Assembly (NCBI GenBank): GCA_964573295.1
Contig: CAZNJE010000021.1
Span: 3,570 to 67,569, forward strand
DNA: 64,000 bases
DNA from: an uncultured bacterium
GTDB lineage: Bacteria; Eisenbacteria; RBG-16-71-46; CAIMUX01; WJJG01
Direction: 5' to 3'
Shown: piece by piece, positions 6,633 through 30,873 of the stretch
How the letters are laid out: each line of letters begins with the position of its first letter
Numbering within the stretch: the first letter of the stretch is position 1
Translations under genes and position numbers: made by a program
The notes under the pieces: model-generated
Told to the model about the DNA's origin: nothing
Databases searched by the model: none
What the model saw: the letters and a program-made list of their open reading frames with translations, nothing else

Positions 6633-6980
6633 ATGTTCTACAAACAGTTCACGGACGTGCCCTCCAAGCCAGTGGCCATGGAAGGAGCCGCTGACGTCAC
6701 CATCCGTGAGGTCTTCACCGAACGAGACGGCACCCCCACCTTCCAGCTGCGCATCTTCGATGTGGCGCCCGGTGGCCACACCCCCCTGCACCAGCACGAC
6801 TACGAGCACGAGATCTTCGTGCTGGCCGGCCAGGGAGAGGTCACGCTCGGCGAGCAGGTCCATGACATCGAACCGGGGAGCACCGCACTCGTCCAACCCA
6901 ATCTTCTCCACCAGTTCCGCAACCCTGGCGAGGCGCCCTTGCTCTTCATCTGTCTGATTCCAAATCGTGAGTCGCATTGA
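6633..6980 (+). CDS. Cupin-domain protein (115 aa)
   Basis: Internal ATG at 6633 with RBS AAGGGAGG upstream. Cupin motifs G(X)5HxH(X)3,4E(X)6G (GGHTPLHQHDYEHEIFVLAGQG) and PxGxxHxxxN-like (PGSTALVQPNLLHQFRNPG). The 168-nt upstream part of the ORF-track entry looks non-coding. Confidence 0.7.
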   Translation: MFYKQFTDVPSKPVAMEGAADVTIREVFTERDGTPTFQLRIFDVAPGGHTPLHQHDYEHEIFVLAGQGEVTLGEQVHDIEPGSTALVQPNLLHQFRNPGEAPLLFICLIPNRESH

Positions 6981-7885
6981 TGGTCGAAGGTCGCGATCAC
7001 CAAGCCGGTCCCCCGCCTTCGCCTTCGTCGTGGCCACCACCTCCCTCCCCCGCCACACGGCCGGGGCTGGGCGAAGCCGTGTTGCTGCTGCTCTTGATGG
7101 GCATCACAACCATGATCGCGGTCACGGCCCTCTTCCTGGGCGACGAGCAACGGGATCTCGACATGCTGCTCATGGGCATTCTCGAGGTCTTGGCCATCAC
7201 TCTCGTGCTGCTGGTTGGTGTGCGCCGCGTCGGGTTGCCGACCACACGGGTTCTGGGATTGCGGGCCGTCCCGCTCTGGCTGTGCCTTATCGCGGTACCG
7301 CTGGCAATGGCCGTGGGCACCGTCAACTCGGCCCTGGAGGCACCGGTACGCAACGTGATGCCGATCCCCGAGGAACTCCTGCTCGAGCTGGTCACCCTGC
7401 TCTATCCCGAGACGACGCTCGACTGGGTGCTGATCCTCCTCCCGACGGCCTTGCTGGTGCCGGTAGGGGAAGAGCTGCTCTTCCGCGGGCTGCTCTTGCG
7501 CGGCTTCCTGCTGCGATACGGAGCCACGCCAGCGCTGGCGCTGACCTCGCTGCTATTCGCGCTCGTTCACCTGAATCCTTGGGCTTTCGCCGGCTACTTC
7601 ATCGTCGGGTGGGTGCTGGGGTGGCTCGTGCTGCGGTCCGGCAGCGTGTGGCCAGCGATCATCCTGCACGCATCTTACAATGCTCTGGCGGTCATCCAGA
7701 CCAAGACGCTCATCGATGGGCCGCCCACACTCGAATCGATCCGTGCCGCATCCGAGAGCTGGTGGGACGCACCGGTGACCATCGTCATCTCAGCGCTTGC
7801 GTTGGTCCTCATGGTTCTGCTAATCGAGTCTCGAAGCCGCCAGGATCACCCCTGGGTCATCGACGAGATCTCCTTCGGCCGATAG
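6977..7885 (+). CDS. CPBP family intramembrane glutamic metalloprotease (CAAX protease / Abi family)
   Basis: Motifs EELLFRG, FALVH and HASYN in successive TM helices. 4-nt overlap with the cupin gene. Confidence 0.75.
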   Translation: MMVEGRDHQAGPPPSPSSWPPPPSPATRPGLGEAVLLLLLMGITTMIAVTALFLGDEQRDLDMLLMGILEVLAITLVLLVGVRRVGLPTTRVLGLRAVPLWLCLIAVPLAMAVGTVNSALEAPVRNVMPIPEELLLELVTLLYPETTLDWVLILLPTALLVPVGEELLFRGLLLRGFLLRYGATPALALTSLLFALVHLNPWAFAGYFIVGWVLGWLVLRSGSVWPAIILHASYNALAVIQTKTLIDGPPTLESIRAASESWWDAPVTIVISALALVLMVLLIESRSRQDHPWVIDEISFGR

Positions 7886-8030
7886 GCGCCGGGCCGAAGG
7901 ACGCCGGGCCGACGGGCGCCGGGTCGAGGGGTGTCCGGCCGAAGGGCGCCGGGCCGACGGGCGCTTGCCGACGGCCGTCCGGCCGATCAAGCCGGGTCAA
8001 CAAGGGAGCTCATTTCTTAGGAGGTGTCTC

Positions 8031-8432
8031 ATGGAATCATCCCCCAGTGCGCAATACAACGATAGCTCTCCGGTACTCTCCCTCACCGTCGAGGAGTTCA
8101 AGGACCTGGTCGCCCGCGTCGTGCGAGACGACGAAGAGATCGACGTCGAACTCGCCGGGCGTTTCGACGGTGGCGAACTCATCGTTCGGCCCAACCGCCC
8201 GGACCTCCAGGAGAAGGTCATCCCCATCGATAGCTTCTTTCACAAGATCGTGATGCTCCGCGATCGGTTGCGGGTTCTGGAGCAGAAGATCAACAGCAAC
8301 AGCAAGCTCAGCGACAGTGACAAGGTGGAACTGCAGCAGTTCATCACTCGCATCTACGGGTCGCTCACGACATTCAACATCCTCTTCCAGTACCGGGACG
8401 ATCAGTTCCGGGGGCAGAGCGGGCGGGGGTAG
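8031..8432 (+). CDS. Hypothetical protein (133 aa), predicted coiled-coil
   Basis: ATG at 8031 with AGGAGG RBS. No recognisable family. Moderate codon bias for this genome. Confidence 0.4.
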   Translation: MESSPSAQYNDSSPVLSLTVEEFKDLVARVVRDDEEIDVELAGRFDGGELIVRPNRPDLQEKVIPIDSFFHKIVMLRDRLRVLEQKINSNSKLSDSDKVELQQFITRIYGSLTTFNILFQYRDDQFRGQSGRG

Positions 8433-8503: not shown

Positions 8504-8598
8504 CCGGGATGATGACCGGGATGATGACCGGGGCGATGACCGGGATGATGACCGGGGCGATGACCGGGGCGATGACCGGGGCGATGACCGGGATGATG
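8504..8598. repeat. 12-nt tandem repeat array (ccggg[g]atgatga / ccggggcgatga), about 8 copies, intergenic
   Basis: Direct inspection: ccgggatgatga ccgggatgatga ccggggcgatga ccgggatgatga ccggggcgatga x3 ccgggatgatg. Confidence 0.85.
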
Positions 8599-8633
8599 TG
8601 TCTTGGTCGTGGACATCTACGAAGGAGGTTTCA

Positions 8634-9152
8634 ATGAGAGGCTCCCAGGGGGTGGTGATCTGTCTGTTGGCCGCAGCCATGCTGCTCATTGCTGGCTCGG
8701 CTGAAGCACAAAGCAAGTCGCGGTTCGGCGTGGGCTATGCGGTCACGCACTATGACCCCACCTTCGACATCACATTCCACATGCCCAAGTTCGTGTTTCA
8801 GTCCGACGTGTTTACCGCCGGGGGCGGATTCCAGCTGCACTCGGGGGAGGATCTCACGAACTTCATCCTGGAATTCGATTTCGCGGCCAAGGCGATCAAG
8901 CACCGGTCGGGGAGCATCAACTTCGGCGGCCAGATGCACCTCATGACCGACGGCATCGTCAGCCAGAATGCCCAGGGCAAGATCGAGAAGGACGCCATCT
9001 TCGGCTTCGGAGGCTTCGCGGAAGGCATGGTCGAGGTGGCCCCGAATATGAGCGTGAGCGCGCGAATCTACCCATTCCAGATCGCGAGCGGAGGCGACGC
9101 CACCCGCTTCGCCCTGCTGAGCGCCGGCGCCACGATCTCCTACCTCTTCTAG
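8634..9152 (+). CDS. Small outer-membrane beta-barrel protein (OmpW/OmpX-like, 8-strand type)
   Basis: RBS GGAGG. Sec signal peptide (LLAAAMLLIAGSAEA-QS). Alternating amphipathic beta-strand pattern. C-terminal aromatic residue (…ISYLF) typical of OMP C-termini. Confidence 0.55.
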   Translation: MRGSQGVVICLLAAAMLLIAGSAEAQSKSRFGVGYAVTHYDPTFDITFHMPKFVFQSDVFTAGGGFQLHSGEDLTNFILEFDFAAKAIKHRSGSINFGGQMHLMTDGIVSQNAQGKIEKDAIFGFGGFAEGMVEVAPNMSVSARIYPFQIASGGDATRFALLSAGATISYLF

Positions 9153-9428: not shown

Positions 9429-9545
9429 GTCTGCCTTGCAGGAAGCGCCCAACCCACCGTTGAAACCCACCGCCAAGAGCGCTATGATGGGACGGTTCTA
9501 TCTTGAAATCGACTTCATCCCCGTTTTTGGGGACAAGGGGGGGGC

Positions 9546-12275
9546 ATGTCAGACTGGAAAGCCCACTTGGAGGAGCTGCTGAATCCGGAAAACGCCTCGG
9601 CGTCCAGTCCGGACGCCGAGGCGCGCACAGCCGCCCAAGATATCCTCGATGAGGCCTCCGCTTCTAACGAAACGGAGGCCTTACTGCAAGAGCTCGATAC
9701 GAGGTATCCGCTCCGCAGCCAGCAGGGACATCTACAGCCCCTGCCGGCCTACCTGCGAAGTCACCTCATGATGCGGCTCGATCGCAGCGAGGAAGCATTG
9801 CTCACGTTGCTGCCGCTGTGCGAGAAGATCGAGCAGGAGGGGAAGTGGGCCGTGCTGAACGCGCTGGCCTCCGAGGCGCTGGCGTTGCAACCCCACATCG
9901 AACTAGCCCGCTACCTGGCCAAGGCGGCCGAGGAAGGCGGCGTTGGTGAGGTACCCGAGGAAACCCTCGAGCATGCGCTGGACCTGTTCCCCGACGAGCA
10001 TCGCCTCTGCTGGCTGGTGGCCGAGAAGCTCGAGGATGCGGGCGAGACCGAGAAGGCCCTGGGTCTCTTCACTGGCTGTCTCCCAGCCCTGATCGACGCC
10101 CGTGAGCGCGAGAAGGTCGAGGAGGTCTTCCTCCGTCTGGAAGATTGTGAGGACAGCGAGACCCTCCAGACGATGATGCACGCCTGCATGCGGCTCTTCG
10201 GGGTCAAGGAATACAAACTCGGCGACTCCTACCTGGAACCGCTACTTCCAAAGATCAAGTCCGTCGGTTTGGCCGGCGAGGCCTGGCGCATGCTGACCAA
10301 ACTGCTCCCGAAAGCGGCCCCGGAGAACAACCTGCGCAAGCACCTGCTCGCGGTCGCGCCCGATGCTTTCCCCGGCGTGGACGGCGTGGCCGATCTGCTC
10401 ACCCGTAGCGGCTTGCTTGATCCGTCGGTCAAAGTCGACCAGGCGCTCAAGAAGCTCAATCAGCTCTTGGAGTTCGCGCCCGGCTACTACGTGCTGCACA
10501 GCAGCTTTGGCCCCGGCCACATCCAGGTGCGCGAGGACGACGCCCTGATCATAGACTTTCCCGACAAGCCTGGGCATCGCATGTCGATGAAGATCGCGCG
10601 CAATGCTCTGCAGGTCATCCCGGCCGACGACTTGCGCGTCCTGTGGGCCAACGAACCGGAGAAGGTCAAGGCCATGGCGCGGTCGGACAAGACCGGTTTG
10701 GCCTATCTGGCCATCCGCGAGCTCGGGGGCAAGACCACCACCCAAGAGCTGCGCCGGCGCCTGACCCCCGACATCATCAGCACCTCGAGCTGGAGCACGT
10801 GGTGGAAGGACGCCCGCACGCTGATGGAGGAGGACGACCGCTTCGACTTCAGCGAGAGCTTCAAGCAAACCTACGGCATCCGCCTCCCGGGCGCCGACGA
10901 TCACGAATTCGAGCTGCCGCGGCTGGACCGGCGACGCGGCATCCGCGCCAACCTGAACCTGCTCCGCCGCTTTCTGGATCAACACCCGCAGCACACCGAG
11001 ACGGCCGTGCGCATGTACACGCCGGTCCTGATCCGTTGGATGCGCGAGGAGCGCACACATCCCGAGGCGGCTGTGGCTGTCTGCCTCACGCTGGATCGCT
11101 GGAAGCGTCTAGATGTCGCGGACCTCGACCGCAGCCTGAAGCGCCTCCTGGAATCCGGGGCGGAAGCCAGCTCCTTCGCCGACGAAGACAGTCAGCGCCT
11201 GCTGGCCACCCGCGCGATGGAACTCGAGGGCTATGAGCGCGACGCCATCTACTTCGCGATGGGATCGCGATACGGTTCCATCCGTGAGGTTGCACTGACC
11301 AAGCTTCGCGCGCAGCCCGAGGAAGGCAACCGGCTGCTGACCGAGCTGCTCGCCCGGCCCGAGGAGCGGCCGAATACGGCGCAGTCGATCATCCAGAACG
11401 TCATGGCCGACGAGTCCGAGCGCGAGCCATTCTTCCCATCGGTCTGGCGGGGGGCGCTCTCGCTCGCCCGTCTCGTCGAGCGCACCGGACGCGATTCGTT
11501 CCGCGAGCAGATCATGCGTCTGTTCAAGCCGAACAGCCAGCTCGCCGATGCGCTTCGCGATGCGCCGGTTCCCGACGACATCCCGTTCTTGCTCGAGGAT
11601 GCGCTGAAGCGCTGGCGCCAATCGGAGAACTACCTCTTCCCCATCCTCGATTTCTTCGAAAGTGCGGGGCTCGAAGAAACGGTGAGTGCCGTTCGTGACA
11701 GCCGCTCGCTGGCCACCAATCGCTTGCTCATGCAACAGCAGCATGAGGGACATGCGTTCGATGGCTATTACCTGACACGCGCCACCTACCACCGGCTGGA
11801 GGAAGAACGCAACCAGCTCGCCTTCGAGCTGAAGACCAGCGTGGCGCAGGCCATTCAGAAGGCACGCGAACACGGCGACCTCAGCGAGAACGCCGAGTAC
11901 GATGCGGCCAAGGAGAAGCAGGCAAACTACCACGCGCGGATCCATCAGATCGACGCCCAGCTGAGCCGCGCCAACCTCATCGAAACGGTCGATGTGCCCG
12001 ACGGGGTCGTCGGTCCCGGATCGTTGGTCGACCTGAAGGTCGTCTCGAGCGCCGGCCCCAACGGCATCAAGAGCCTACGCTATTGGCTCCTGGGCGAGGG
12101 CGACTCCGGCGACAGCGAAGAGGTGATCTCCTGCACGGCCCCAGCCGCAAAGAAGCTGCTGGGCCACCGTGTGGGCGATACGATCGAACTCGAGAGCGAT
12201 CAGGGGCCGTATCAGGTTGAGATCGTGGCCACTGAGAAACGCTTGCCGGAAGAGCACTCGGCGGGGAAGGCGTAG
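9546..12275 (+). CDS. Large (909 aa) protein with a C-terminal GreA/GreB transcript-cleavage-factor domain fused to a roughly 700-aa helical N-terminal region
   Basis: C-terminus has the canonical GreA N-terminal coiled-coil motif (AREHGDLSENAEYDAAKEKQANYHARIHQIDAQL) followed by the FKBP-like GreA C-domain (VVGPGSLVDLK...ISCTAPAAKKLLGHRVGDTIELES). The N-terminal 700 aa has no family I can name. A segment (YYVLHSSFGPGHIQVRED) faintly resembles CarD/TRCF RNAP-interaction motifs. Confidence 0.7.
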   Translation: MSDWKAHLEELLNPENASASSPDAEARTAAQDILDEASASNETEALLQELDTRYPLRSQQGHLQPLPAYLRSHLMMRLDRSEEALLTLLPLCEKIEQEGKWAVLNALASEALALQPHIELARYLAKAAEEGGVGEVPEETLEHALDLFPDEHRLCWLVAEKLEDAGETEKALGLFTGCLPALIDAREREKVEEVFLRLEDCEDSETLQTMMHACMRLFGVKEYKLGDSYLEPLLPKIKSVGLAGEAWRMLTKLLPKAAPENNLRKHLLAVAPDAFPGVDGVADLLTRSGLLDPSVKVDQALKKLNQLLEFAPGYYVLHSSFGPGHIQVREDDALIIDFPDKPGHRMSMKIARNALQVIPADDLRVLWANEPEKVKAMARSDKTGLAYLAIRELGGKTTTQELRRRLTPDIISTSSWSTWWKDARTLMEEDDRFDFSESFKQTYGIRLPGADDHEFELPRLDRRRGIRANLNLLRRFLDQHPQHTETAVRMYTPVLIRWMREERTHPEAAVAVCLTLDRWKRLDVADLDRSLKRLLESGAEASSFADEDSQRLLATRAMELEGYERDAIYFAMGSRYGSIREVALTKLRAQPEEGNRLLTELLARPEERPNTAQSIIQNVMADESEREPFFPSVWRGALSLARLVERTGRDSFREQIMRLFKPNSQLADALRDAPVPDDIPFLLEDALKRWRQSENYLFPILDFFESAGLEETVSAVRDSRSLATNRLLMQQQHEGHAFDGYYLTRATYHRLEEERNQLAFELKTSVAQAIQKAREHGDLSENAEYDAAKEKQANYHARIHQIDAQLSRANLIETVDVPDGVVGPGSLVDLKVVSSAGPNGIKSLRYWLLGEGDSGDSEEVISCTAPAAKKLLGHRVGDTIELESDQGPYQVEIVATEKRLPEEHSAGKA

Positions 12276-12397
12276 GACGCCCACGTAAACGCCCGCGCCC
12301 ACGCCCGCGTAAGCGCCTGCGCCTGCGCCTGCGCCCGCGCCCGCGTGAGCGCCGGCGTCCGCGCAGGCGTCCGTGCCGGTGAATCTGCAAGAAGGGA

Positions 12398-13126
12398 GTG
12401 ATGTTGGACCGTCGTCCAGGCGTACTCTTCGACTTCGACGGTACTCTGGTGGACACCTTCGGCGGTATCGTCGAGGGTGTTCAGCGTATGCGGGCCCGGT
12501 TGGAGGCCGGCCCGCTGCCGTTCGGGGAAGCCAAGCGCCACATCGGCTGGGGCATCAAGAACCTCGTCGGCCAGTGCCATCCCCGGTTGGACGCACTTCG
12601 TCCCGATGAGCTTCCCGCCGACGGCTCGCCGCTGCCGCTGGAGGAAGCACTGCTGCTGGAGACCGTCGAGCTGTTTCGTGCCGAGTACCAGCAATGCCAG
12701 ATGCACGAAACGCACGCCTATGAGGGCATCCCCGATCTGTGCGACGAGCTGGCCGGGAGCGGCGTGGCCCTGGCGGTGGTCAGCAACAAACCCGAGCGTT
12801 TCGTCCGGTACATCATGGCCGCGCTCGGCCTCGCCGACCCGTTTGCCTTGGTTCTGGGCGGCGACTCCCTCCCCACACTGAAGCCGCACCCGGCACCACT
12901 GCTCCACGTCATCGACACACTGACTATCGACCGCAAACGGTGCGCGATGGTGGGCGACAGCGATCTGGACATCCGGGCGGCGCTGGCCGCCCAGCTGCCT
13001 TCTATCGCCGTAGGCTGGGGGATCCAGCCACCCGAGCAATTGCGCCAAGTCCGCCCGACCCACCTGGTCGAGACCACCACCGCCTTGCGAGAGCGGCTAG
13101 GGAGCGTGCTGGATCCATCGAGTTAG
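12398..13126 (+). CDS. HAD-superfamily hydrolase, phosphoglycolate phosphatase-like (Gph family)
   Basis: HAD motif I (LFDFDGTLVDT), motif II (VVSNKPE), motif III/IV (K...MVGDSDLDIRAA). Confidence 0.75.
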   Translation: MMLDRRPGVLFDFDGTLVDTFGGIVEGVQRMRARLEAGPLPFGEAKRHIGWGIKNLVGQCHPRLDALRPDELPADGSPLPLEEALLLETVELFRAEYQQCQMHETHAYEGIPDLCDELAGSGVALAVVSNKPERFVRYIMAALGLADPFALVLGGDSLPTLKPHPAPLLHVIDTLTIDRKRCAMVGDSDLDIRAALAAQLPSIAVGWGIQPPEQLRQVRPTHLVETTTALRERLGSVLDPSS

Positions 13127-15985: not shown

Positions 15986-18616
15986 CTACCGCAGGACCAT
16001 CACCTTGCCCGAGAGCGACTCGCTGCTGGCATCCAGACGGTAGAAGTACACACCGCCCGAGGTCGGCTGGCCGGCCTCGTCCCGTCCGTCCCAGCTCAGG
16101 GTGTGATAGCCGGCTTCCACCTGACCGGAGACCAGGGTGCGCACCAGGCGACCACTCATGTCGTAGACGCCCAGATGCGCCGCGCCCGTCTGCGGCAATC
16201 CGAAGCTGATCGTGCTCGCGCTGTGCAGCGGGTTCGGCGTCGCCGGCGCCAGTTGCAGGCGACTGGGCACACCCGTGCGGTCGTTGACATCCGAGTAGTC
16301 GGCCGTGATGAGCGTCACGGGAACCATCGCCCGGCCACCGTTCGACTGGACGGCGATGCCGGCCTCGTGCGTGCCGAAAGCGAGCCCTTCGGTATCGACG
16401 GTGACCTGAACCTCGACGCTCTCTCCATAGGGAACCTCGAGGTAGCTGGGGTCGAAGCTCATCCACGGATTGAGCATGGGGGGACTCATCGAGAGGCGGG
16501 CCTCCAACACCGAGCCCTCCATGCCCACATTCGAGATCGTCAAGAAATCGGTCTGCTGCTCACCCATCGGTACGTAGAAGGTGAACTCGCCCGGCTCGGC
16601 GAAGAGCGCCGGCACGAGCGGCTCGCCCACCGAGAGCTCGACCGCGAAGACGTTGCGGTTGAAGTGGGTCACGGTAAGGGTCACCGTCTCCTCGGGCAGG
16701 GTGCCCACCACGGGGATCTCGGCGTAGCCGGAGGCGTTGGTGACGGCCGAGCCCAGGTAGATGCCGTCCTTGCTCAGGCCGCACAGCGCGCCTTCCACGC
16801 CCGGGACGGTCAGGCCATAGGTGGTCGCGTCCGGGTCGATCGTGTCCTCGTACTCGACGGTGAGATCGATCGGCGTGGCGGTGCGCACGCGCAGAGACGG
16901 ATCGCCGAAGATCGTCCAGTTCTTGAACTCGCTGATACCGTTGTAGCCGTACTCATCGATCATCTGACAGGAGCCGCTGAAGCAGAGCGCGCCCCAGGTG
17001 TACTTCGCCTCGGCGACCAGGAGATCGGCCGTCTCGTCCTGCGCCGACATCGGCGGCGCCCATTGCATGTTGACCGTCGAGGCGTAGATGCCCACCGCCC
17101 CGGTCGGTTCGCCGGAGTGGCTCGCCTGCATCCAGGCCTCGGCGAAGCAGGTGCTGCTGTACTGGAAGGCGCCGTTGACGCAAGCCACCGACACGATCAC
17201 CGGCAACATGTTGTCGTTGGTGAGCGCGTTCACGTGGTTGTTGTTGAAGCCGGTCGTCGACCAGGAGGTCGAACTGCCGTGACCGCAGTAGTTGATGATC
17301 GAGCGGCCGGCGTTGACGGCCGCGGCCACGTCGGAAGCGTTGGCGCCATAGATCGCATAGAGGCGATCCACCTCGTCGTAGGTGAAGCCCAGCAGGTCGT
17401 CGCGGATGTTGTCGATATGTACCCAGTCGGCCTCGCCGTCATCGCCGATGCCGGCGCCCTCCGCCGAACCGATCCCAACACCTTTCTGGTACCAGCCGGC
17501 CGCCTGCGGCAGCGACTCGTACTCGACAAACTTCGTGACCTGCAGGGCCACGGCCCCCAGGTCCTGGGCGCTGATGCGGCCGATGAAGATATCCGGGTAG
17601 TTGTCGCTGCCGGCCACCAGCGCGTACATCGGATCGGCCGGAGCGCCAGCGTTCGAGAGCGACGGAATCTGCGGCAAGTCACCAACGAGCAGGACGAAGG
17701 CCAGATCGTGGGTGTCGTAGTAGTTCTGGACGTAGCTCTTGATCTGGTTGGCCGAACTTCCCACTTCCGAGAGCAGGAGGAGGGTCGTCGGTACGCCCAT
17801 CTGATTCTTCCACTCCACCAGCGGTTCCACCGCCGAGGCGTAGGAGTCATACGCGATCACGATCATCTCGCCCACTTCGTCGATCGGGGCATAGCGACCG
17901 AAGCCGCCCATGGCGTAGTTGATGAAGTGATTGGTGTAGAGCTTGTCGAACTCCGGATGGACATCGGCGGGCACGCCGCCGGCACGCTGGATCACATTGA
18001 CGGCGCCGGGACCCACCGGCACCAGTTCGATCTCCACATAGTCGTACACACGCAGGGTGTGCGCGGAGGGATCGTATTGCACCGGGTTGATCGTCACCAC
18101 CGCACCGCGGTAGTCGCGCAGGATATAGGGCTCGCCGATCTCAGCCAGCTCGGACGGGAAGAACCCGGCCTGCTCGTAGAGATCGCCGAAGGTGTAGGGC
18201 ACGCTGGCCGGATCCATATCGCGCGTCAGACTGCCCTTCGATGGCACCACGTCGATGCCGCTGAATTCTTGATAGCTCGAGCGGATCACCCGAATCTGCA
18301 TCTCCATATCGTCAGGAATGATCACACTGCGGTTGATCGTAGGCAGCTCGGGAAAGCCCGCTTCGAGAAGATTGCTCTCTTCTCCTAGCGTCACGGAATG
18401 GAAGGTCGCCCCGCCAATCGTCACTTCCTCGAGCTCGAAGCCCGCCAGACGGTAGTCCAGCGTGATCGTCTGCAGGTTCTGATTCACCACCTGGACATCA
18501 ACCGCTTCAGCCGATTCATCCGCGCCCGCGGTCAGGGAAACGAAGGTCCCCGCACCGGCGGCGCTGGTGAAGAGCACTCCCAGAATGGCGAAAAGGGCTA
18601 GAGCTCTTGATCTCAT
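15986..18616 (-). CDS. Secreted peptidase C25 (gingipain-like cysteine protease) with a T9SS/FlgD-Ig-like C-terminal sorting domain
   Basis: Signal peptide (MRSRALALFAILGVLFTSAAGAG) with RBS AGGGAG. N-terminal C25 propeptide-like region. Catalytic region with conserved His (NYCGHGSSTSW) and Cys (VSVACVNGAF). C-terminal approximately 80 aa (GVYDMSGRLVRTLVSGQVEAGYHTLSWDGRDEAGQPTSGGVYFYRLDA...KVMVLR) matches the Por/T9SS-type secretion CTD pattern. Confidence 0.75.
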   Translation of the reverse strand: MRSRALALFAILGVLFTSAAGAGTFVSLTAGADESAEAVDVQVVNQNLQTITLDYRLAGFELEEVTIGGATFHSVTLGEESNLLEAGFPELPTINRSVIIPDDMEMQIRVIRSSYQEFSGIDVVPSKGSLTRDMDPASVPYTFGDLYEQAGFFPSELAEIGEPYILRDYRGAVVTINPVQYDPSAHTLRVYDYVEIELVPVGPGAVNVIQRAGGVPADVHPEFDKLYTNHFINYAMGGFGRYAPIDEVGEMIVIAYDSYASAVEPLVEWKNQMGVPTTLLLLSEVGSSANQIKSYVQNYYDTHDLAFVLLVGDLPQIPSLSNAGAPADPMYALVAGSDNYPDIFIGRISAQDLGAVALQVTKFVEYESLPQAAGWYQKGVGIGSAEGAGIGDDGEADWVHIDNIRDDLLGFTYDEVDRLYAIYGANASDVAAAVNAGRSIINYCGHGSSTSWSTTGFNNNHVNALTNDNMLPVIVSVACVNGAFQYSSTCFAEAWMQASHSGEPTGAVGIYASTVNMQWAPPMSAQDETADLLVAEAKYTWGALCFSGSCQMIDEYGYNGISEFKNWTIFGDPSLRVRTATPIDLTVEYEDTIDPDATTYGLTVPGVEGALCGLSKDGIYLGSAVTNASGYAEIPVVGTLPEETVTLTVTHFNRNVFAVELSVGEPLVPALFAEPGEFTFYVPMGEQQTDFLTISNVGMEGSVLEARLSMSPPMLNPWMSFDPSYLEVPYGESVEVQVTVDTEGLAFGTHEAGIAVQSNGGRAMVPVTLITADYSDVNDRTGVPSRLQLAPATPNPLHSASTISFGLPQTGAAHLGVYDMSGRLVRTLVSGQVEAGYHTLSWDGRDEAGQPTSGGVYFYRLDASSESLSGKVMVLR

Positions 18617-19113
18617 GACACACTCCCTGGCGGTGCGGGCCTGAAGATCCAGACGAGACCGCCGATGTTGGTCGTCCATGTCCTATGCTGTCCGTCAGCT
18701 ACCAGCCCGGCGCGATCGCGCTGACGTAGTCGCCCTCATGCGGTCGTCCTCATGTGGTCGCCCTGACGTAATCGCGCCAGCTTGGACTCATCAATTATAG
18801 CACAGATCCACGGTGCGCCGGGCTCCCGAAAAGTCTAGTTCATTAGTGGATGGGCGTGTCGGGAATGTATACGCCTGAGGAGGACGGCACGATGTCACAT
18901 GGAGATTCGATCTCGCATCTTGCTAGATTACAAAAGGATACGGAACCATCGCCCAAGATGTTTCATTGTCGCAACACGATCAGGACGCAGCCCCGGCAAG
19001 CTTCGGCAAACACCGCGAGGATAGGTCAGCGCAGGTCTGCTGTGCCTCGACGGGTGACACAGGAAGAGCTCGTCTTCAATCCCCTCTTCACCCCCCCGTC
19101 TTCAACCCCGTCT

Positions 19114-22499: not shown

Positions 22500-24095
22500 A
22501 TGAAGGTCATTCTGGCCGGGCAGAATCTCGACCAATCCATCGTCGCGCGCTTTCGCGCTTACCTCGAGCAGCGGGCTGTGTCGCCTTCGCCGGGTTCGGC
22601 TTCTGCGGACTCCCCAGCCCCCCAGGCTTCCACCGGCCACGCCGGCGGCGGCGTCTCGTCGTCAGAACACCGATCCTTGCGCGGCCTGGATCCGCAGAGC
22701 CTCTCGCCCGAGACCCTATCGGCTGCCTATGCGCGCATCAGTCGTGATCCACATCCGATTCCCGATCTGCGCGCGCAAGCCATCGCCGACGTGACCGCCG
22801 CCAGGAAGTCGAACCAACGTATCATCTTCGGCTTCGGCCACGCGAGTGTGGCCGAACACGCCGTGTTCAACCTCGATATTCTGGACATCTCGCGTATTGC
22901 GATGGAAGCGCTCGAGAGTTCTCGTCTGGCGTCCTACACTGAGAAATCGCAGCGCTACATCACGCTGGATCGTGACTACGTAGTTCCAGAGGAAGTCGCC
23001 GCCGCCGGCTTGGAGCGCCAGTTTCGCGAGCTGATCCGCAAGCAACAGGACCACTATCAAACGGCGCACGAGCGGCTCCTGGCACTCTACCAGCAGAAGC
23101 ACCCCGACCAGTGGGAGAAGCGCAGCGGGCGGCGCGCCCTCGAAGGCGCCGCCAAAGAAGACGCCCGCTATTTCCTTTCTCTGGCGACCACCGCGCAGGT
23201 GGGGGTGACGATGAATGCCCGAACCTTGGAAGCGACGGTGCGCCGTCTGGCAGCCGATCCCCTCCAGGAGTGCCGCCACCTGGCCGAGGCCATTCACGCC
23301 GCCGTCATCGAGGCGGCCCCATCCCTGGTCCGCTACGTCGAAGCCACCGAATACCGGCGGGAAACACCTCCGGCCATCGAACACTGGGTGTGCCACCGAT
23401 GGCCCGCCGATGGCCCCTCCGGGAAAGAATCGAATTCCGAAAGCCCGCCGGCCGCGCGTTTGGTCTTCTCAACACCGAACGGTGACGACATGCTCCTGAC
23501 GGCCCTGGTGGCCGGAAGCTGTGGACGCAGTTGGGCCGACGCCGAAGGCTGGGTTGCCTCACTCGACCAGGACGGCCGGCGTGAACTCGTGCTCGAGAGC
23601 CTGCGCCGTCTGGATGAGCATGCCACGATCCTGCGCCAGTTCGAGATTCCCGAGTTCATCTTCGAACTCATCGCGAGCGCCTCTTGCTTCGCTCAACTCA
23701 AACGTCACCGGCTGGCAACGCTTCTCCCCCAGCCCTACGAGCCGGCGCTGGGCGTGACGATCCCGCCCGCGTTCCGAGAGGCCAGCTTGCTCGGTGAGTA
23801 CCGCGATGTCTGCGCGCACGCCGAAAGCCTGGCCGAGCAGATCCGCTCCCGCCATCGCGATGCGGCCGCCTACATTCTGACCAACGGCCACCGCCGGCGC
23901 GTGATCTTCAAGGCCAATGCCCGCGAGCTCTATCATCTTGCGCGGCTTCGTCTGGACGCCCATGCTCAATGGGACATCCGTCATCTGTCCGAGGAGATGA
24001 TCGGCCTCGCGCGCAAGGCACTCCCTCTGACCATGCTCATGGCCTGCGGCAGGGACCAGTTCCCCGAGCACCGCCGCCGCGTGCTCAGTTCCTGA
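22500..24095 (+). CDS. thyX: Tandem-domain flavin-dependent thymidylate synthase ThyX-like protein (531 aa)
   Basis: Two ThyX-like halves. First: GHASVAEHAVFNLDILDISRIAMEALESSRLASYTEKSQRY (the conserved RHR appears degenerate as SRL). Second: QLKRHRLATLL...ANARELYHLARLRLDAHAQWDIR. The size matches the duplicated-domain ThyX seen in some lineages. Confidence 0.55.
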   Translation: MKVILAGQNLDQSIVARFRAYLEQRAVSPSPGSASADSPAPQASTGHAGGGVSSSEHRSLRGLDPQSLSPETLSAAYARISRDPHPIPDLRAQAIADVTAARKSNQRIIFGFGHASVAEHAVFNLDILDISRIAMEALESSRLASYTEKSQRYITLDRDYVVPEEVAAAGLERQFRELIRKQQDHYQTAHERLLALYQQKHPDQWEKRSGRRALEGAAKEDARYFLSLATTAQVGVTMNARTLEATVRRLAADPLQECRHLAEAIHAAVIEAAPSLVRYVEATEYRRETPPAIEHWVCHRWPADGPSGKESNSESPPAARLVFSTPNGDDMLLTALVAGSCGRSWADAEGWVASLDQDGRRELVLESLRRLDEHATILRQFEIPEFIFELIASASCFAQLKRHRLATLLPQPYEPALGVTIPPAFREASLLGEYRDVCAHAESLAEQIRSRHRDAAAYILTNGHRRRVIFKANARELYHLARLRLDAHAQWDIRHLSEEMIGLARKALPLTMLMACGRDQFPEHRRRVLSS

Positions 24096-27000
24096 CCGCA
24101 GTTCCCGCGCCGCGGGCCGCCGCCGGTGCGACCTCCCACGGCAATGGCCCGCTGCCGCGGCCCCAGGTGATCGTCTGACGGATGAAAACGATGGCGCGTT
24201 CAGCGAGAACATAGAATGTGGGCAGCACGATCAAGGTCAAGACCGTGCTGGTGGCCAGGCCGCCCATGATGGCCCTGGCCAGCGGGTAGTAGTAGCCCCC
24301 AGCCATGTCTGCGCGACCGAGGGCCAGCGGAGTCAGGCCCAGAATCGTCGTGGAGGCCGCCATCAGGATCGGACGGAAACGGTCGCGGCAGCCCTCGAGA
24401 ATGGCATCCTCGCGGCTGCGCCCCTTGCGACGCAGGTTGTTGATGTGGTCGACCAGAACGATCCCATTGTTCACCACGAGACCGACCAGAATCACGATCC
24501 CGATCATCGCCATGATGTTGAACGGCGTGTTCGACACCATGAGCGTCCAGATCACACCCAGCGCCGCGAATGGGATGCACAACATGATCACCAACGGATG
24601 CAGCAGGGATTCGAACAGCGCCGCCATCAGCAGATACACACAGCAGAGAGCCAGGAGAATGTTGATGAGCATCTCGTTCTGCTCGGCGGCCTCCTCCTGC
24701 AGCTGTCGGCTGAAAGACCAGCTGTAGCCCGAGGGCAGATCCAGCGTATTCATCACACGCTCCACACGGTCCTGGAGCCCACTGTAGTTGTCGCCTTCGT
24801 AAGCTCCCCGAACGGTGATGGCCGTCTTCTGCTGCTCCCGGTGGATGCGCTGCGCCCCCTTGCCCATCTCAAACCGGGCAATCTGGCCCAGGAGAATCGG
24901 ACGGCCGTCGCGATAGCTGATCGGCAGACGCGCGAGATTGTCGATATTGCGCCGGTCGGAGGGCTCGAGCACGATGTCCATGTCGACCTCGCGGGTCTCT
25001 CCTTGAAACTCCCGTAACGGGATCCCGCGGAATGTCAGGCCCAGGATGCTCGCCAGGGTACGCGAATCGACACCGAAACGGCCGCCTTGTTCCCGATCGA
25101 GAACCACCCGCACCTCGTCGGCGCCCTCCTGGATGTCGGTCCGCACATCCTCTAGATCATCGATCGAGCTCAAGCGCCGGTGCGCTTCCTCGGAGATCTC
25201 GGTCAGTAGTTCGGTGTCTTCGCCGAACAGGGTCACCGCCATGGTCTTGGCTCCCTGACCCGACTCCTCCTCGGTCCCAAAACGGTAGGTCACCCCAGCG
25301 ATCTCGGGCAGGCTCTCGCGAAGGAACTCCCGCATCTGCTTGACCTGGTCTACCGACAGCGGGTCTTCCTTCGGATAGATGAGCGAGAAAGACGCATTGT
25401 TGTCGTAGTACCAGCAATAGACCGACTCGACCCCGTGGCTATCCCGCAGAGGCAGCAGAAACTCCTCGAGCTCGAGAACACGATCGTGAACGGCGTAGAG
25501 GTTCGTGTTGTCGCTGAACTCGAGCCAGAACTCGACTTCACTGCGCTTGACGCCTCGGTCACCCATGACCTCGGGTTCGAAACCGGTCACCTGCATGGCC
25601 ACGATGGTGACCACGATGAACAAGGGGATGAATACGAGCCCGGTCCGCATGGGGTGCGCGATCGCCGTCCAGCGGAGCATGCGCAAGTATCCACTCCGAA
25701 GAGCGGTCAACCAGCGACCTTCATTCGGGGCGGCAGCCGCAGCCGGGGCCGCAGTCGGGGCCACTGCCGGGGCCGCAGCCGGCGACGCGTTCTTCTTGGC
25801 CCGGATACCCGCCGTGCCTTGACTGCCCTGCCCCTCGAGCGGGGTGCGGGCCGCCAGCATGGGCACCAGCGTCAAGCAGATCAGCAGCGAGAAGACCAGG
25901 GTGACCGAGATCGTGATGCCGACCTCGCTCATCCAGACCATGATCTCGTTCGTGTTCGAGAGCACGATCGGCGCGAAGACGATGATCGAGGTCAGGGTCG
26001 AGGCGGTCACCGCCATGCCCACCTCGCGGGCGCCCAGCCTGGCGGCCTCCGGTGCGGAGAGACCCTGCTCCTGCTTGCGGAAAATCGACTCCAGGACAAC
26101 GATGGCGTTATCGACCAGCATTCCGACCGCGAGCATGAGCCCCATCATGGTGAGCACGTTGAGCGAGCGATCCGTCAGATACAGGAACACACAGGCCGAG
26201 ATCACGCAGAAGGGCATCGCCACCGAGGCGATCAGCGTGTTCCTCATGCGCCGCAGAAACAGGTAGATCACCACCACCGCCAGCAGCGATCCGATCAGCC
26301 CGGCCTGAAACACGCTTCGTAATGAATTGCGAATCTGCTCGGCTTGATCGAAGAAGAAGATCACGTTGATGCCTTCGAGCACCGGATCGCGGCGGATCTC
26401 CTCGAGCACCTCGTGGATGCCTTCCGAGACCTCCACGATGTTGGCGCCCGAGGCCTTCTGAACCTCGATCGCGATCGCCGATTCCCCATTGAGGCGGCGC
26501 AGATAGCCGTAGGAGGGCTCACTGTAATCGACCGTAGCGATGTCACGCAGCCGCAGCCCGCTGGGAGAGACCTGCAGATCCTCGAGCTCATCGAGTGACC
26601 GAAACTGCCCGAGCGTGCGCACCGTCACGCGCTGGTCGCCGTCGACCACCCGGCCCACCGACATGTCGATGTTGTTCGCGTTCAGGAGTTCGAAGAGGCG
26701 TTCGATGTCGATGCCGTGGGCGATGATGCTGTCCAGATGCAGGTAGATGCGAATGCTCTTCGGGTTGATTCCGCCGACCTCGACGCGGCCGACGCCCTCG
26801 ACCCTGCGCATCGGGTTGATCACGCGCCGCTCGAGCAGGTCGTAGGAATTGGCCAGGTCACGGCCCGGGGCGCTGATGCGGCCCACCATGATCGGGATGT
26901 CATTCGAGTTGAAACTGAAGATGTAGGTGTCGTCCACGTCGTCGGGCAAGAGGGGCCGGACCTGTTCGAGCTTCTCCTTCACCTCCATGCGCAAGACGTC

Positions 27001-27303
27001 GACGCTGCGGCCGAAGTCGAAGAAAACGCCCACGAACACGTCGTCCTCGTCGGTGTTCGAGAAGATGTGATTGACGTCCCCCAGCGTGGCCATGATCTCT
27101 TCAATCGGCCGCGCAATCTCCTTCTCGGCCTGGGCCGGGACGGCGTTCGGATAGGGCACGTAGACCCCGATGAAGGGGAAGTCCACCATCGGCAGGAAAT
27201 CCATCTTGAGGCGCGTCAGACTCACCGCGCCCAGGACCAGCACGGCCAGGGTGATGACCAGCACGGTCACGGGCTTTTGCAGCGCGTGATCGGACAGGCT
27301 CAT
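24085..27303 (-). CDS. RND (HAE1/AcrB-type) efflux permease, second RND gene of the operon (MdtC-like)
   Basis: Start revised to MSLSDHALQKPVTVLV (RBS GGGAGG). 12-TM AcrB architecture. Approximately 40-aa Ala/Pro-rich insert (GSQGTAGIRAKKNASPAAAPAVAPTAAPAAAAAPNEG) in a periplasmic loop. Confidence 0.85.
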   Translation of the reverse strand: MSLSDHALQKPVTVLVITLAVLVLGAVSLTRLKMDFLPMVDFPFIGVYVPYPNAVPAQAEKEIARPIEEIMATLGDVNHIFSNTDEDDVFVGVFFDFGRSVDVLRMEVKEKLEQVRPLLPDDVDDTYIFSFNSNDIPIMVGRISAPGRDLANSYDLLERRVINPMRRVEGVGRVEVGGINPKSIRIYLHLDSIIAHGIDIERLFELLNANNIDMSVGRVVDGDQRVTVRTLGQFRSLDELEDLQVSPSGLRLRDIATVDYSEPSYGYLRRLNGESAIAIEVQKASGANIVEVSEGIHEVLEEIRRDPVLEGINVIFFFDQAEQIRNSLRSVFQAGLIGSLLAVVVIYLFLRRMRNTLIASVAMPFCVISACVFLYLTDRSLNVLTMMGLMLAVGMLVDNAIVVLESIFRKQEQGLSAPEAARLGAREVGMAVTASTLTSIIVFAPIVLSNTNEIMVWMSEVGITISVTLVFSLLICLTLVPMLAARTPLEGQGSQGTAGIRAKKNASPAAAPAVAPTAAPAAAAAPNEGRWLTALRSGYLRMLRWTAIAHPMRTGLVFIPLFIVVTIVAMQVTGFEPEVMGDRGVKRSEVEFWLEFSDNTNLYAVHDRVLELEEFLLPLRDSHGVESVYCWYYDNNASFSLIYPKEDPLSVDQVKQMREFLRESLPEIAGVTYRFGTEEESGQGAKTMAVTLFGEDTELLTEISEEAHRRLSSIDDLEDVRTDIQEGADEVRVVLDREQGGRFGVDSRTLASILGLTFRGIPLREFQGETREVDMDIVLEPSDRRNIDNLARLPISYRDGRPILLGQIARFEMGKGAQRIHREQQKTAITVRGAYEGDNYSGLQDRVERVMNTLDLPSGYSWSFSRQLQEEAAEQNEMLINILLALCCVYLLMAALFESLLHPLVIMLCIPFAALGVIWTLMVSNTPFNIMAMIGIVILVGLVVNNGIVLVDHINNLRRKGRSREDAILEGCRDRFRPILMAASTTILGLTPLALGRADMAGGYYYPLARAIMGGLATSTVLTLIVLPTFYVLAERAIVFIRQTITWGRGSGPLPWEVAPAAARGAGTAVRN

Positions 27304-27412
27304 CGTTGCCTCCCTGGGTCTCGGCCCGTCGCCTGCTCGAGGCACATCCCCTGACACCGTCTCACGATCCGCCCCCGTCGTCTGCTCACCCGGTCCCATC
27401 CCCCGCGCCGCC

Positions 27413-30853: not shown

Positions 30854-30873
30854 GGGTGTCTGTGCCCTCGCCG

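What the first reader, a model, noticed from the sequence alone, without database searches (positions are those of the whole stretch)
9546..12275. 909-aa protein ending in a complete GreA/GreB transcript-cleavage domain: giant Gre-factor fusion
Canonical GreA proteins are about 160 aa. Here the full GreA signature is only the last approximately 160 residues of a 909-aa protein. That signature is the coiled-coil with HGDLSENAEYDAAKEKQ plus the FKBP-like C-domain with SCTAPAAKKLLGHRVGDTIELE. The preceding approximately 750 aa are helical/TPR-like with no obvious family. One segment (YYVLHSSFGPGHIQVRED) weakly recalls CarD/TRCF RNAP-binding motifs. Such a fusion would tether a secondary-channel factor to a large regulatory or scaffolding domain. 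The acidic tip residues needed for cleavage stimulation in GreA appear present (DLSENAEYD).
Basis: partly seen in the sequence, partly recalled or inferred. Interest (0 to 1): 0.6.

Follow-up and report, generated by a model that had tools for sequence, protein, structure and literature searches.

The report
Long GreA with RNAP-binding-type Tudor domain
The 909-residue protein is a real, intact gene, but it belongs to an already catalogued (though functionally unstudied) family of "long GreA" transcription factors; what is new here is that its conserved N-terminal core looks like the small Tudor domain that DNA-repair helicases use to grip RNA polymerase.

Summary
Window 9546-12275 (+) is one uninterrupted 909-aa ORF whose last ~160 residues are a complete GreA with an intact acidic tip (D778/E781). 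It is not a frameshift or assembly artefact: codon bias is uniform across the junction, and intact ~900-aa orthologues at 37-98% identity occur in 15 other Candidatus Eisenbacteria-type genome loci.

The fusion is not new. The N-terminal 740 aa alone finds 773 protein clusters, nearly all ending in GreA. They include proteins that pass NCBI's curated long-GreA model NF011309, and ~740-aa Planctomycetota proteins that bridge to NF004969. Pfam already models the core (PF27167, HTH_GRAD).

What I add is anatomy. A confident AlphaFold model (pLDDT 93) shows helical solenoid, five-strand Tudor domain, winged helix, second solenoid, then GreA. The Tudor domain matches the RNAP-binding C-terminal Tudor of UvrD/PcrA by sequence profile (E = 6.6e-5) and by fold (TM 0.87, rmsd 1.4 Å), and the family's most conserved residues fall on PcrA's RNAP-contact positions.

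The likeliest mechanism, which is inferred, is a Gre cleavage factor anchored to RNAP at two points. Stand-alone N-modules without GreA also exist.

The parts
9460..9488 (+). Sigma-70-like promoter candidate (TTGAAA-17-TATGAT), about 58 nt upstream of the start codon
   Evidence: 10 of 12 matches; 1 site found against 0.5 expected in shuffles. This is weak, a consensus match only.
9546..12275 (+). Complete long-GreA gene (909 aa plus stop)
9546..10475 (+). aa 1-310: N-terminal alpha-helical solenoid (17 helices, TPR/HAT-like)
   Evidence: AF2 model with pLDDT about 94-97. Foldseek gives only generic TPR/HAT hits. Homologous to the same region of spirochaete-type long GreA (hhalign 98.4%, E 8.7e-15). 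Largely absent from the ~740-aa class.
10476..10625 (+). aa 311-360: five-strand Tudor-like domain of PcrA/UvrD-CTD type; the most conserved part of the N-region (H318, F/W321, G322, G324, F338, H344, M346, A351, L355)
10626..10880 (+). aa 361-445: winged-helix-like domain with a conserved W416-x-x-W419-W420 and R/K424 on its third helix. Together with the Tudor domain it forms the region covered by Pfam PF27167 (HTH_GRAD).
   Evidence: secondary structure, pLDDT 96-98; weak cullin-WHB hits; P0040 maps PF27167 to aa 294-431.
10881..11765 (+). aa 446-740: linker with the conserved LPRLDRRRGIRANLNLLRRFLDQHP motif, then a second alpha-helical solenoid; the fastest-evolving part
   Evidence: Homology to the GRAD_C region of other classes is only transitive.
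11766..11981 (+). aa 741-812: GreA N-terminal coiled coil with acidic tip D778/E781 (nt 11877-11888)
11982..12239 (+). aa 813-898: GreA C-terminal FKBP-like globular domain (in canonical Gre factors this binds the beta' rim helices)
12398..13126 (+). Conserved downstream partner gene: HAD-IA hydrolase resembling phosphoglycolate phosphatase, probably co-transcribed
   Evidence: HAD_2, 1e-30. (NF009695, 153 bits, below its cutoff of 225). (conserved directly downstream in 13 of 15 Eisenbacteria-type loci). (no terminator-like site between the genes).

Best explanation
This is the Eisenbacteria orthologue of the 'long GreA' family: a Gre-type transcript-cleavage factor permanently fused to a ~740-residue accessory module that Pfam labels GRAD.

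Shown: the C-terminal 160 residues are a canonical GreA, with a coiled coil carrying the invariant Asp/Glu tip and an FKBP-like globular domain. The N-module is solenoid, Tudor, winged helix, solenoid. The Tudor domain is of the same type as the RNAP-binding C-terminal Tudor of UvrD/PcrA.

Inferred: the GreA part enters the RNAP secondary channel and stimulates cleavage of backtracked RNA, as ordinary GreA does. The Tudor (plus winged-helix) core gives a second, independent grip on RNAP. The most likely site is the beta subunit, either the lobe/SI1 hairpin used by UvrD/PcrA or the beta1 site used by CarD/Mfd. The second solenoid would act as a spacer between the two contact points.

Two-point anchoring would keep the cleavage factor resident on elongating RNAP, and could let it out-compete other secondary-channel or Tudor-site ligands.
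For: GreA module: Pfam domains above gathering cutoffs; E. coli GreA, Gfh1 and GreB structures hit by sequence and by fold, TM 0.73-0.79; tip D778 in 84/85 and E781 in 82/85 family members.

Family membership: NF011309 at 1.1e-52 over aa 76-446. The N-region alone retrieves 773 clusters, and 152 of 188 held proteins end in GreA. P0095 and P0134 pass the NF011309 cutoff. Profile-profile homology for the N-solenoid is 98.4% and for the core 100%; the C-solenoid is bridged through intermediates.

Tudor domain: the core profile against PDB sequences gives UvrD CTD 7egt_B at E 6.6e-5, then five more UvrD/PcrA CTDs. In Pfam, 16/32 members hit PcrA_UvrD_tudor, 11/32 DUF3553 and 5/32 CarD_TRCF_RID. 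The AF2 core has pLDDT 95.8. Foldseek gives 7egt_B at TM 0.87 and rmsd 1.4 Å, 7egs_B (UvrD CTD bound to the RNAP lobe) at TM 0.75 and rmsd 1.5 Å, plus 5dma, 9dqs, 4kbm_B and 2lqk.

Contact residues: the PcrA residues shown by mutagenesis to bind RNAP (H681, W684, K712, L714; PMC5397179) coincide with the most conserved columns of the long-GreA N-region: H318 80/85, W321 77/85, H344 78/85, M346 68/85.

Experimental hint: B. burgdorferi GreA co-purifies with RNAP (PMC7237435).
Against: There is no direct evidence that this Tudor domain touches RNAP.

The key Lys of PcrA/UvrD (K712/K708) is a near-invariant His here. This particular protein has Phe where the family and PcrA have Trp.

The window sequence on its own matches no Tudor Pfam model even at E <= 1 (part A); the signal comes from the family profile and the predicted fold.

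The PcrA Tudor also binds UvrB and other proteins through the same hairpin motif (PMC8318588), so the partner need not be RNAP.

Stand-alone N-modules without GreA exist, so the module has a function that does not require a fused GreA.

I could not inspect model coordinates or PAE, so the geometric feasibility of simultaneous binding is untested.

The GreA module scores below the NCBIfam GreA model cutoffs (for example TIGR01462, 117 against 139).
Confidence: 0.55

Rival explanations
1. The Tudor/winged-helix core recruits a partner other than RNAP, such as UvrB or another protein carrying the TGE beta-hairpin 'helicase interaction motif', or a nucleic acid. The long GreA would then couple anti-backtracking to DNA repair or to another process rather than simply anchoring itself.
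For: The PcrA CTD binds UvrB, YxaL and YwhK through the same motif it uses on RpoB (PMC8318588). The best structural match, 7egt_B, is the UvrD CTD crystallised with UvrB. The winged helix carries a conserved W-x-x-W-W...R/K helix that could contact nucleic acid. Stand-alone N-modules exist.
Against: Fusion to a secondary-channel factor in about 80% of held family members argues that the module acts at RNAP. No repair gene is a conserved neighbour. No strict TGE motif is encoded anywhere in the window.
Confidence: 0.15
2. The N-region is a regulatory or scaffolding module, either auto-inhibitory or binding signals or partners through its solenoids. It would gate when the GreA module can enter the secondary channel, with the Tudor domain serving an intramolecular structural role.
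For: About 580 of the 740 residues are helical repeats of the type commonly used for protein-protein interaction. The pTM of 0.65 with pLDDT of 93 suggests a fairly defined overall arrangement. The second solenoid evolves fast.
Against: The strongest conservation lies on the Tudor surface positions equivalent to PcrA's intermolecular contact residues, not in the solenoids. The same surface is kept in stand-alone proteins, which have no GreA to regulate.
Confidence: 0.2
3. The Gre module acts as a Gfh1-like inhibitor (an occupant of the secondary channel) and does not stimulate cleavage.
For: Gfh1 structures score almost as well as GreA. The module scores below the GreA equivalog cutoffs.
Against: The catalytic tip motif GDLSENAEY is identical in pattern to GreA (D41/E44 equivalents) and nearly invariant across 85 family members. 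In Chlamydia the long form is the only annotated Gre factor (PMC10995303), which fits a housekeeping cleavage role.
Confidence: 0.07
4. It is an anti-phage conflict protein of the 'effector + TPR + GreA/B-C + PIN' type, or an assembly or frameshift artefact.
For: Helical repeats precede a Gre domain, superficially like the system described in PMC8195603.
Against: It has no PIN domain and no variable effector, it has the full GreA including the coiled coil, and it evolves slowly with fixed length. It has no PADLOC hit. It sits in ordinary chromosomal context. Against an artefact: uniform codon bias and 15 independent loci with the same gene.
Confidence: 0.02

Closest known systems
Spirochaete-type long GreA (NCBIfam NF011309 / PRK14720, 906-position model; from my own knowledge, the Borrelia burgdorferi GreA of about 900 aa is the archetype)
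   Same: Same overall length and order: N-solenoid, Tudor, winged helix, second solenoid, GreA. The N-solenoid and core are homologous by profile-profile comparison (98.4% and 100%). True members P0095 and P0134 were retrieved with the window's N-region alone.
   Different: Only about 18-23% identity. The window protein scores 179 bits against a cutoff of 714, so it is not an equivalog member. The second solenoid is related only through intermediates. Pfam GRAD_C (PF27371) is not recorded for the window protein but is recorded for the spirochaete-like stand-alone P0139.
Chlamydial/planctomycete-type long GreA (NCBIfam NF004969 / PRK06330, 'transcript cleavage factor/unknown domain fusion protein'; C. 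trachomatis CTL0004, 715 aa, PMC10995303)
   Same: Same Tudor, winged helix, solenoid, GreA core. The ~740-aa proteins (for example Ca. Brocadia P0113 and Planctomycetota P0093 and P0118) match both curated long-GreA models and the window's aa ~180-515.
   Different: These proteins lack most of the first ~170-180 residues of the N-solenoid. The window protein hits NF004969 only through its GreA module.
Canonical GreA/GreB (about 158 aa; PDB 1grj, 2p4v)
   Same: Both domains, the acidic tip D/E and the fold. The nearest non-family GreA modules are ordinary 157-162-aa GreAs at 35-45% identity.
   Different: A 740-residue N-terminal extension, and scores below the GreA equivalog model cutoffs.
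C-terminal Tudor domain of UvrD/PcrA helicases (Pfam PF21196; PDB 7egt, 7egs, 5dma, 6yi2, 9dqs)
   Same: Five-strand Tudor fold (TM up to 0.87, rmsd 1.4 Å), 24-31% identity, and the shared H-x-x-W/F-G-x-G ... F ... (K/H)-R-(L/M) signature on the partner-binding face.
   Different: It is internal rather than C-terminal, fused to a winged helix and solenoids rather than to a helicase, and the key Lys is replaced by His. Binding to RNAP is untested.
CarD/CdnL and the Mfd RNAP-interacting domain (Pfam PF02559)
   Same: A Tudor-like RNAP beta-binding domain followed by a helical domain. The top Foldseek hit is the CarD/beta complex 4kbm_B (E 5e-3), and 5 of 32 members hit CarD_TRCF_RID weakly.
   Different: Sequence similarity is much weaker than to UvrD/PcrA. 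The whole-CarD superposition is poor (rmsd about 14 Å). These domains use a different binding mode (beta-sheet extension on beta1; PMC5397179).
TPR + GreA/B-C + PIN conflict systems (Kaur et al. 2021, PMC8195603)
   Same: Helical repeats N-terminal to a Gre C-domain.
   Different: Those proteins lack the Gre coiled coil, carry PIN and variable effector domains, and evolve rapidly. None of that applies here.

Membership tests
GreA/GreB transcript cleavage factors | N-terminal coiled-coil domain (Pfam PF03449) above the gathering score | tested here: met
   72.2 bits against 24.5, aa 742-810
GreA/GreB transcript cleavage factors | C-terminal FKBP-like domain (Pfam PF01272) above the gathering score | tested here: met
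   39.8 bits against 26.9, aa 818-896; fold TM 0.73-0.79 to GreA, GreB and Gfh1
GreA/GreB transcript cleavage factors | Acidic tip residues equivalent to E. coli GreA D41 and E44 | tested here: met
   D778 and E781 align to D41 and E44; conserved in 84/85 and 82/85 family members
GreA/GreB transcript cleavage factors | NCBIfam GreA model score cutoff (TIGR01462, NF001263 and others) | tested here: not met
   117.2 against 139, and 119.5 against 145
GreA/GreB transcript cleavage factors | Stimulates endonucleolytic cleavage of backtracked RNA in the RNAP secondary channel | not testable with these tools
   Requires biochemistry
Long GreA, spirochaete type (NF011309) | Whole-protein score of at least 714 bits | tested here: not met
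   179.3 bits, although E is 1.1e-52 with a collinear match of aa 76-446 to model positions 74-443
Long GreA, chlamydial type (NF004969) | Whole-protein score of at least 697 bits | tested here: not met
   81.9 bits, through the GreA module only
Long GreA / GRAD superfamily (Pfam PF27167 HTH_GRAD plus a GreA module) | PF27167 hit on the protein | tested here: met
   Precomputed Pfam annotation of P0001, which is 100% identical to the window protein, lists PF27167. The family is named and mapped to aa ~294-431 via P0040. The model is not in the local Pfam copy, so I could not re-score it.
Long GreA / GRAD superfamily | Collinear homology of the N-region to bona fide long GreAs | tested here: met
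   hhalign: N-solenoid 98.4%, core 100%; second solenoid bridged at 100%, 93% and 99.8%
Long GreA / GRAD superfamily | PF27371 GRAD_C hit | tested here: not met
   Not among the precomputed Pfam families of P0001, although it is present on P0139
PcrA/UvrD Tudor domain (PF21196) | Sequence match to the family | tested here: inconclusive
   The window sequence alone gives no hit at E <= 1, while 16 of 32 relatives hit weakly (best 9.4e-4). The family profile hits UvrD CTD 7egt_B at E 6.6e-5.
PcrA/UvrD Tudor domain (PF21196) | Five-strand Tudor fold superposable on solved CTDs | tested here: met
   TM 0.87 / 1.4 Å (7egt_B), 0.75 / 1.5 Å (7egs_B), 0.71 / 2.3 Å (5dma). This rests on a predicted model with pLDDT 95.8.
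PcrA/UvrD Tudor domain (PF21196) | RNAP-contact residues H681, W684, K712, L714 (G. stearothermophilus PcrA numbering, PMC5397179) | tested here: inconclusive
   H matches H318. W is Trp in 77/85 members but Phe in this protein. K is replaced by His (78/85). L is replaced by Met (68/85).
PcrA/UvrD Tudor domain (PF21196) | Binds the TGE beta-hairpin of RpoB SI1 or UvrB | not testable with these tools
TPR-GreA/B-C-PIN conflict system | C-terminal PIN domain and variable N-terminal effector | tested here: not met
   No such domains in Pfam; no PADLOC hit

The most novel reading that the evidence does not exclude
The long GreA is a built-in antagonist of helicase-driven backtracking. Its UvrD/PcrA-type Tudor domain would occupy the same beta-subunit hairpin that recruits UvrD/PcrA (or the CarD/Mfd site), while the tethered GreA module simultaneously rescues backtracked complexes. 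In that case Eisenbacteria, Planctomycetota, Chlamydiota, Spirochaetota and Armatimonadota have hard-wired the known GreA-versus-UvrD antagonism into one polypeptide, and the stand-alone GRAD proteins would be a previously unrecognised class of RNAP-associated factors.
Probability: 0.15. Interest if true: 0.7.

Novelty: new member of a known kind. Interest (0 to 1): 0.38.

Why it matters
Long GreA proteins are, by annotation, the only Gre factor in chlamydiae (PMC10995303) and, from my own knowledge, in Lyme-disease spirochaetes. The held literature only remarks that they are 'unusually large'. Recognising an RNAP-binding-type Tudor domain plus a winged helix as the invariant core of the extension gives a concrete, mutable surface (H318, W/F321, H344, M346, W416) and a testable two-point-anchoring model. 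That model could be examined in the existing B. burgdorferi in-vitro transcription system. The Eisenbacteria gene itself is simply one more orthologue. It does show that the family is broad and environmental, and is not a peculiarity of host-associated pathogens.

Tried and rejected
1. Frameshift or mis-assembly: rejected on uniform codon bias and 15 independent loci with the same gene.

2. Second Gre gene in the window: none by tblastn.

3. Short GreA elsewhere in the lineage: a search with the GreA module alone listed no Eisenbacteria-labelled short GreA among the 120 hits shown. This is only weak negative evidence, because whole genomes could not be scanned.

4. Full-length Foldseek against the PDB: uninformative for the N-region, with generic TPR/HAT hits at rmsd above 20 Å.

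The narrower A5 worked but reached essentially only Eisenbacteria.

7. Split-gene hypothesis for P0139: rejected, because no GreA sequence follows it in any frame. It is a true stand-alone protein.

8. Defence-system reading: rejected.

9. Operon link to transcription or repair genes: none found. Only a HAD phosphatase is conserved downstream.

10. PcrA-type TGE partner motif in the window: none.

11. Literature: ten searches found no paper that characterises the N-terminal extension or defines 'GRAD'.
Full report
OBSERVATION. Pfam places GreA_GreB_N at aa 742-810 and the GreA/GreB C-domain at aa 818-896, both well above their gathering scores. E. coli GreA (1grj) aligns to aa 749-897 at E 6e-16, with the catalytic-tip residues D41 and E44 matching D778 and E781. 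The window has 65% G+C. The codon-position signature (GC3 about 0.8, GC2 about 0.4) is uniform across the ORF, including the supposed junction near 11700, and no other Gre-like sequence exists in the 64 kb. A scan of species-representative genomes returned 16 loci. All named ones are Candidatus Eisenbacteria except one Planctomycetota, and L001 is 96-98% identical to the window. The 15 Eisenbacteria-type loci carry the same gene at 37-98% identity, matched over about 850-910 residues except where the contig ends early. The fusion is therefore real and fixed across a phylum, which disposes of the frameshift or mis-assembly alternative.

NOT A NEW KIND OF PROTEIN. The best NCBIfam hit is not a short GreA. 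It is NF011309 (PRK14720), a 906-position 'GreA' model whose positions 74-443 align collinearly with aa 76-446 (E 1.1e-52), although at 179 bits the protein is far below the 714-bit equivalog cutoff. All 39 close homologues are 843-943 aa long and carry a precomputed Pfam family, PF27167, that is absent from the local Pfam copy. A later context look-up names it HTH_GRAD, with a companion family PF27371, GRAD_C. An exhaustive phmmer search with aa 1-740 alone, excluding the GreA module, found 773 clusters at 50% identity (242 at E <= 1e-10), falling into two length classes of about 870-940 and about 720-800 aa. Of the 188 proteins then held, 152 end in a GreA module, and most of the rest are fragments. 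Representatives P0095 and P0134 pass the NF011309 cutoff. The ~740-aa class (Ca. Brocadia, Planctomycetota) matches NF011309 positions 180-903 and also NF004969 (PRK06330, 'transcript cleavage factor/unknown domain fusion protein') positions 5-704. Source names also include Armatimonadota. Profile-profile comparison between the Eisenbacteria-type and spirochaete-type groups gives 98.4% (E 9e-15) for the N-terminal solenoid and 100% (E 7e-39) for the core, against 0.2% for mismatched-region controls. The second helical region is linked only transitively, through intermediate groups (100%, 93%, 99.8%). So the whole architecture is one ancient family, already catalogued by NCBI and Pfam. [quoted passage not shown] Ten literature searches found no functional study of the extension and no definition of 'GRAD'.

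ANATOMY. AlphaFold2 on an 85-sequence family alignment gave a very confident model (mean pLDDT 93, pTM 0.65). It shows aa 1-310 as 17 helices in a solenoid, aa 315-358 as a five-strand beta-domain, aa 363-445 as a helix-strand module with winged-helix topology, aa 466-735 as a second solenoid, and aa 741-898 as GreA. Foldseek against the PDB recognises the GreA part (TM 0.73-0.79 to GreA, GreB and RNAP-bound Gfh1) and otherwise gives only generic TPR/HAT repeat proteins at very large rmsd. Across 85 sequences, down to about 17% identity, the near-invariant N-region residues are H318, W321, G322, G324, F338, H344, A351, L355 and W416. All lie in the beta-domain or on the third helix of the winged helix. 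P0040, the only hit carrying PF27167 alone, matches aa 294-431 only, which locates that Pfam family on this core.

THE CORE IS A UvrD/PcrA-TYPE TUDOR DOMAIN. An HMM of aa 296-452 from 32 diverse members, searched against all PDB chain sequences, hits the T. thermophilus UvrD C-terminal domain (7egt_B) at E 6.6e-5, followed by five more UvrD/PcrA C-terminal domains. Scanned individually against Pfam, 16 of 32 members hit PcrA_UvrD_tudor, 11 hit DUF3553 and 5 hit CarD_TRCF_RID, all weakly. The window's own sequence hits none. A separate model of the core (pLDDT 95.8, pTM 0.86) superposes on 7egt_B (TM 0.87, rmsd 1.4 Å, 31% identity). It also superposes on 7egs_B, the UvrD CTD bound to the E. coli RNAP lobe (TM 0.75, rmsd 1.5 Å), and on PcrA 5dma, UvrD1 9dqs, UvrD 6yi2 and CdnL 2lqk. 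The CarD/RNAP-beta complex 4kbm_B is the top hit by E-value. The individual Foldseek E-values are modest (5e-3 to 0.1), as expected for a 50-residue domain, but the list is coherent and agrees with the independent sequence result. The PcrA residues shown by mutagenesis to mediate RNAP binding (H681, W684, K712, L714; PMC5397179) map onto H318, W321, H344 and M346, the best-conserved columns of the family. Two differences matter. The key Lys is a near-invariant His in this family, and this particular protein, like 4 of the other 84 sequences, has Phe in place of the Trp.

STAND-ALONE MODULES. Four representatives (P0123, P0139, P0159, P0185; 734-740 aa) are 31-42% identical to each other over their full length. 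They align to residues 1 to ~722 of the bona fide long GreA P0134 and end where the GreA module would begin. P0139 lies in the interior of a contig of at least 70 kb. The 527 nt after its stop are full of stop codons and have no Gre similarity in any frame. These proteins retain the same Tudor and Trp-helix signature. The N-region is therefore an autonomous module that has mostly, but not always, been fused to GreA.

CONTEXT. Neighbours are unremarkable: Fe-S protein, nitroreductase and cupin upstream, and HAD hydrolase and epimerase downstream. Farther out lie a sigma54 two-component pair, a C25 peptidase, ThyX, an RND efflux system and a Tricorn-like protease. Only the HAD hydrolase, which resembles phosphoglycolate phosphatase but scores below the equivalog cutoff, is conserved. 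It sits immediately downstream in 13 of the 15 Eisenbacteria-type loci, and the other two end too early to tell. No terminator-like site was found between the two genes. I see no functional link to transcription and treat this as lineage-level synteny. There is no defence-system signal, and the 'TPR + GreA/B-C + PIN' conflict architecture of PMC8195603 does not fit.

MECHANISM. Shown: a canonical, tip-intact GreA module, and an N-module whose invariant core has the fold and the partner-face signature of RNAP-binding Tudor domains. Inferred: the GreA module works in the secondary channel as in ordinary Gre factors. The Tudor (plus winged-helix) core supplies a second contact with RNAP, probably on the beta subunit, and the second solenoid acts as a spacer. 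The result would be a resident, two-point-anchored cleavage factor. I put about 0.55 on this composite: about 0.8 on the Gre function and about 0.45 on the RNAP-anchoring role of the Tudor domain. Rivals are recruitment of a different TGE-hairpin partner such as UvrB or of a nucleic acid (0.15), a regulatory or scaffolding role without direct RNAP contact (0.2), a Gfh1-like inhibitory role (0.07), and a defence system or artefact (0.02 or less).

VERDICT. This is a new, environmental member of a known but functionally uncharacterised family. The useful addition is the identification of the conserved core as a UvrD/PcrA-type Tudor domain plus a winged helix, together with the existence of a stand-alone clade. 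Interest 0.38.

Noticed in passing
window 12398-13126 (+); loci L002-L013 and L015 directly downstream of the long-GreA gene: A HAD-IA hydrolase resembling phosphoglycolate phosphatase (NF009695, 153 bits, below its cutoff of 225) is conserved immediately downstream of the long GreA in 13 of 15 Eisenbacteria-type loci, even where GreA identity falls to 37%. Upstream genes are not conserved, and no terminator-like site separates the pair.
   Followed up: partly
window 12277-12379: The GreA-HAD intergenic region is an imperfect GC-rich tandem array. It includes 5.5 copies of GCGCCT at 96% match, nested in 12- and 18-nt periods. Its function is unknown, and I did not check whether it is conserved in the related loci.
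   Followed up: no
L017 4001-6214 (P0139); also P0123, P0159 and P0185: A conserved clade of stand-alone ~737-aa proteins (Pfam HTH_GRAD + GRAD_C) equals the whole N-region of spirochaete-type long GreA without any GreA module. In L017 the neighbours are a gyrase A gene, Fe-S proteins, an RNase_H_2-domain protein and a Peptidase_S55 gene.
   Followed up: partly
P0040 (455 aa, ENA metagenome contig of 9375 bp): This protein carries only the Tudor plus winged-helix core, 73% identical to window aa 294-431, embedded between flanks with no similarity to the window protein. It is either a metagenome assembly chimera or a case of the core being shuffled into another protein.
   Followed up: no
window 10506-10508 (codon for F321): This protein and 4 of the other 84 family members have Phe at the position that is Trp in 77 of 85 relatives and in PcrA (W684, an RNAP-contact residue). 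The closest homologue in the alignment, P0002, has Trp.
   Followed up: partly
window 22500-24095 (+): A 531-aa ThyX-like protein with two separate Thy1 (PF02511) stretches, roughly twice the usual ThyX length. It may be a tandem-domain or fused ThyX.
   Followed up: no
window 15986-18679 (-): An 897-aa gingipain-like C25 peptidase with a propeptide, a C25 Ig-like domain and a C-terminal FlgD_ig domain. The C-terminal domain could be a secretion sorting domain, which I did not test.
   Followed up: no
window 24085-32394 (-): Two consecutive AcrB-family RND transporter genes (1104 and 1146 aa) follow a HlyD-type membrane-fusion gene, an efflux operon with duplicated pump subunits.
   Followed up: no
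window 8598-9152 (+) and 6967-8253 (+): The two ORFs directly upstream of the long GreA have strong coding signal but no Pfam, NCBIfam or PADLOC match. They are conserved only in the closest relatives (L001 and L002).
   Followed up: partly
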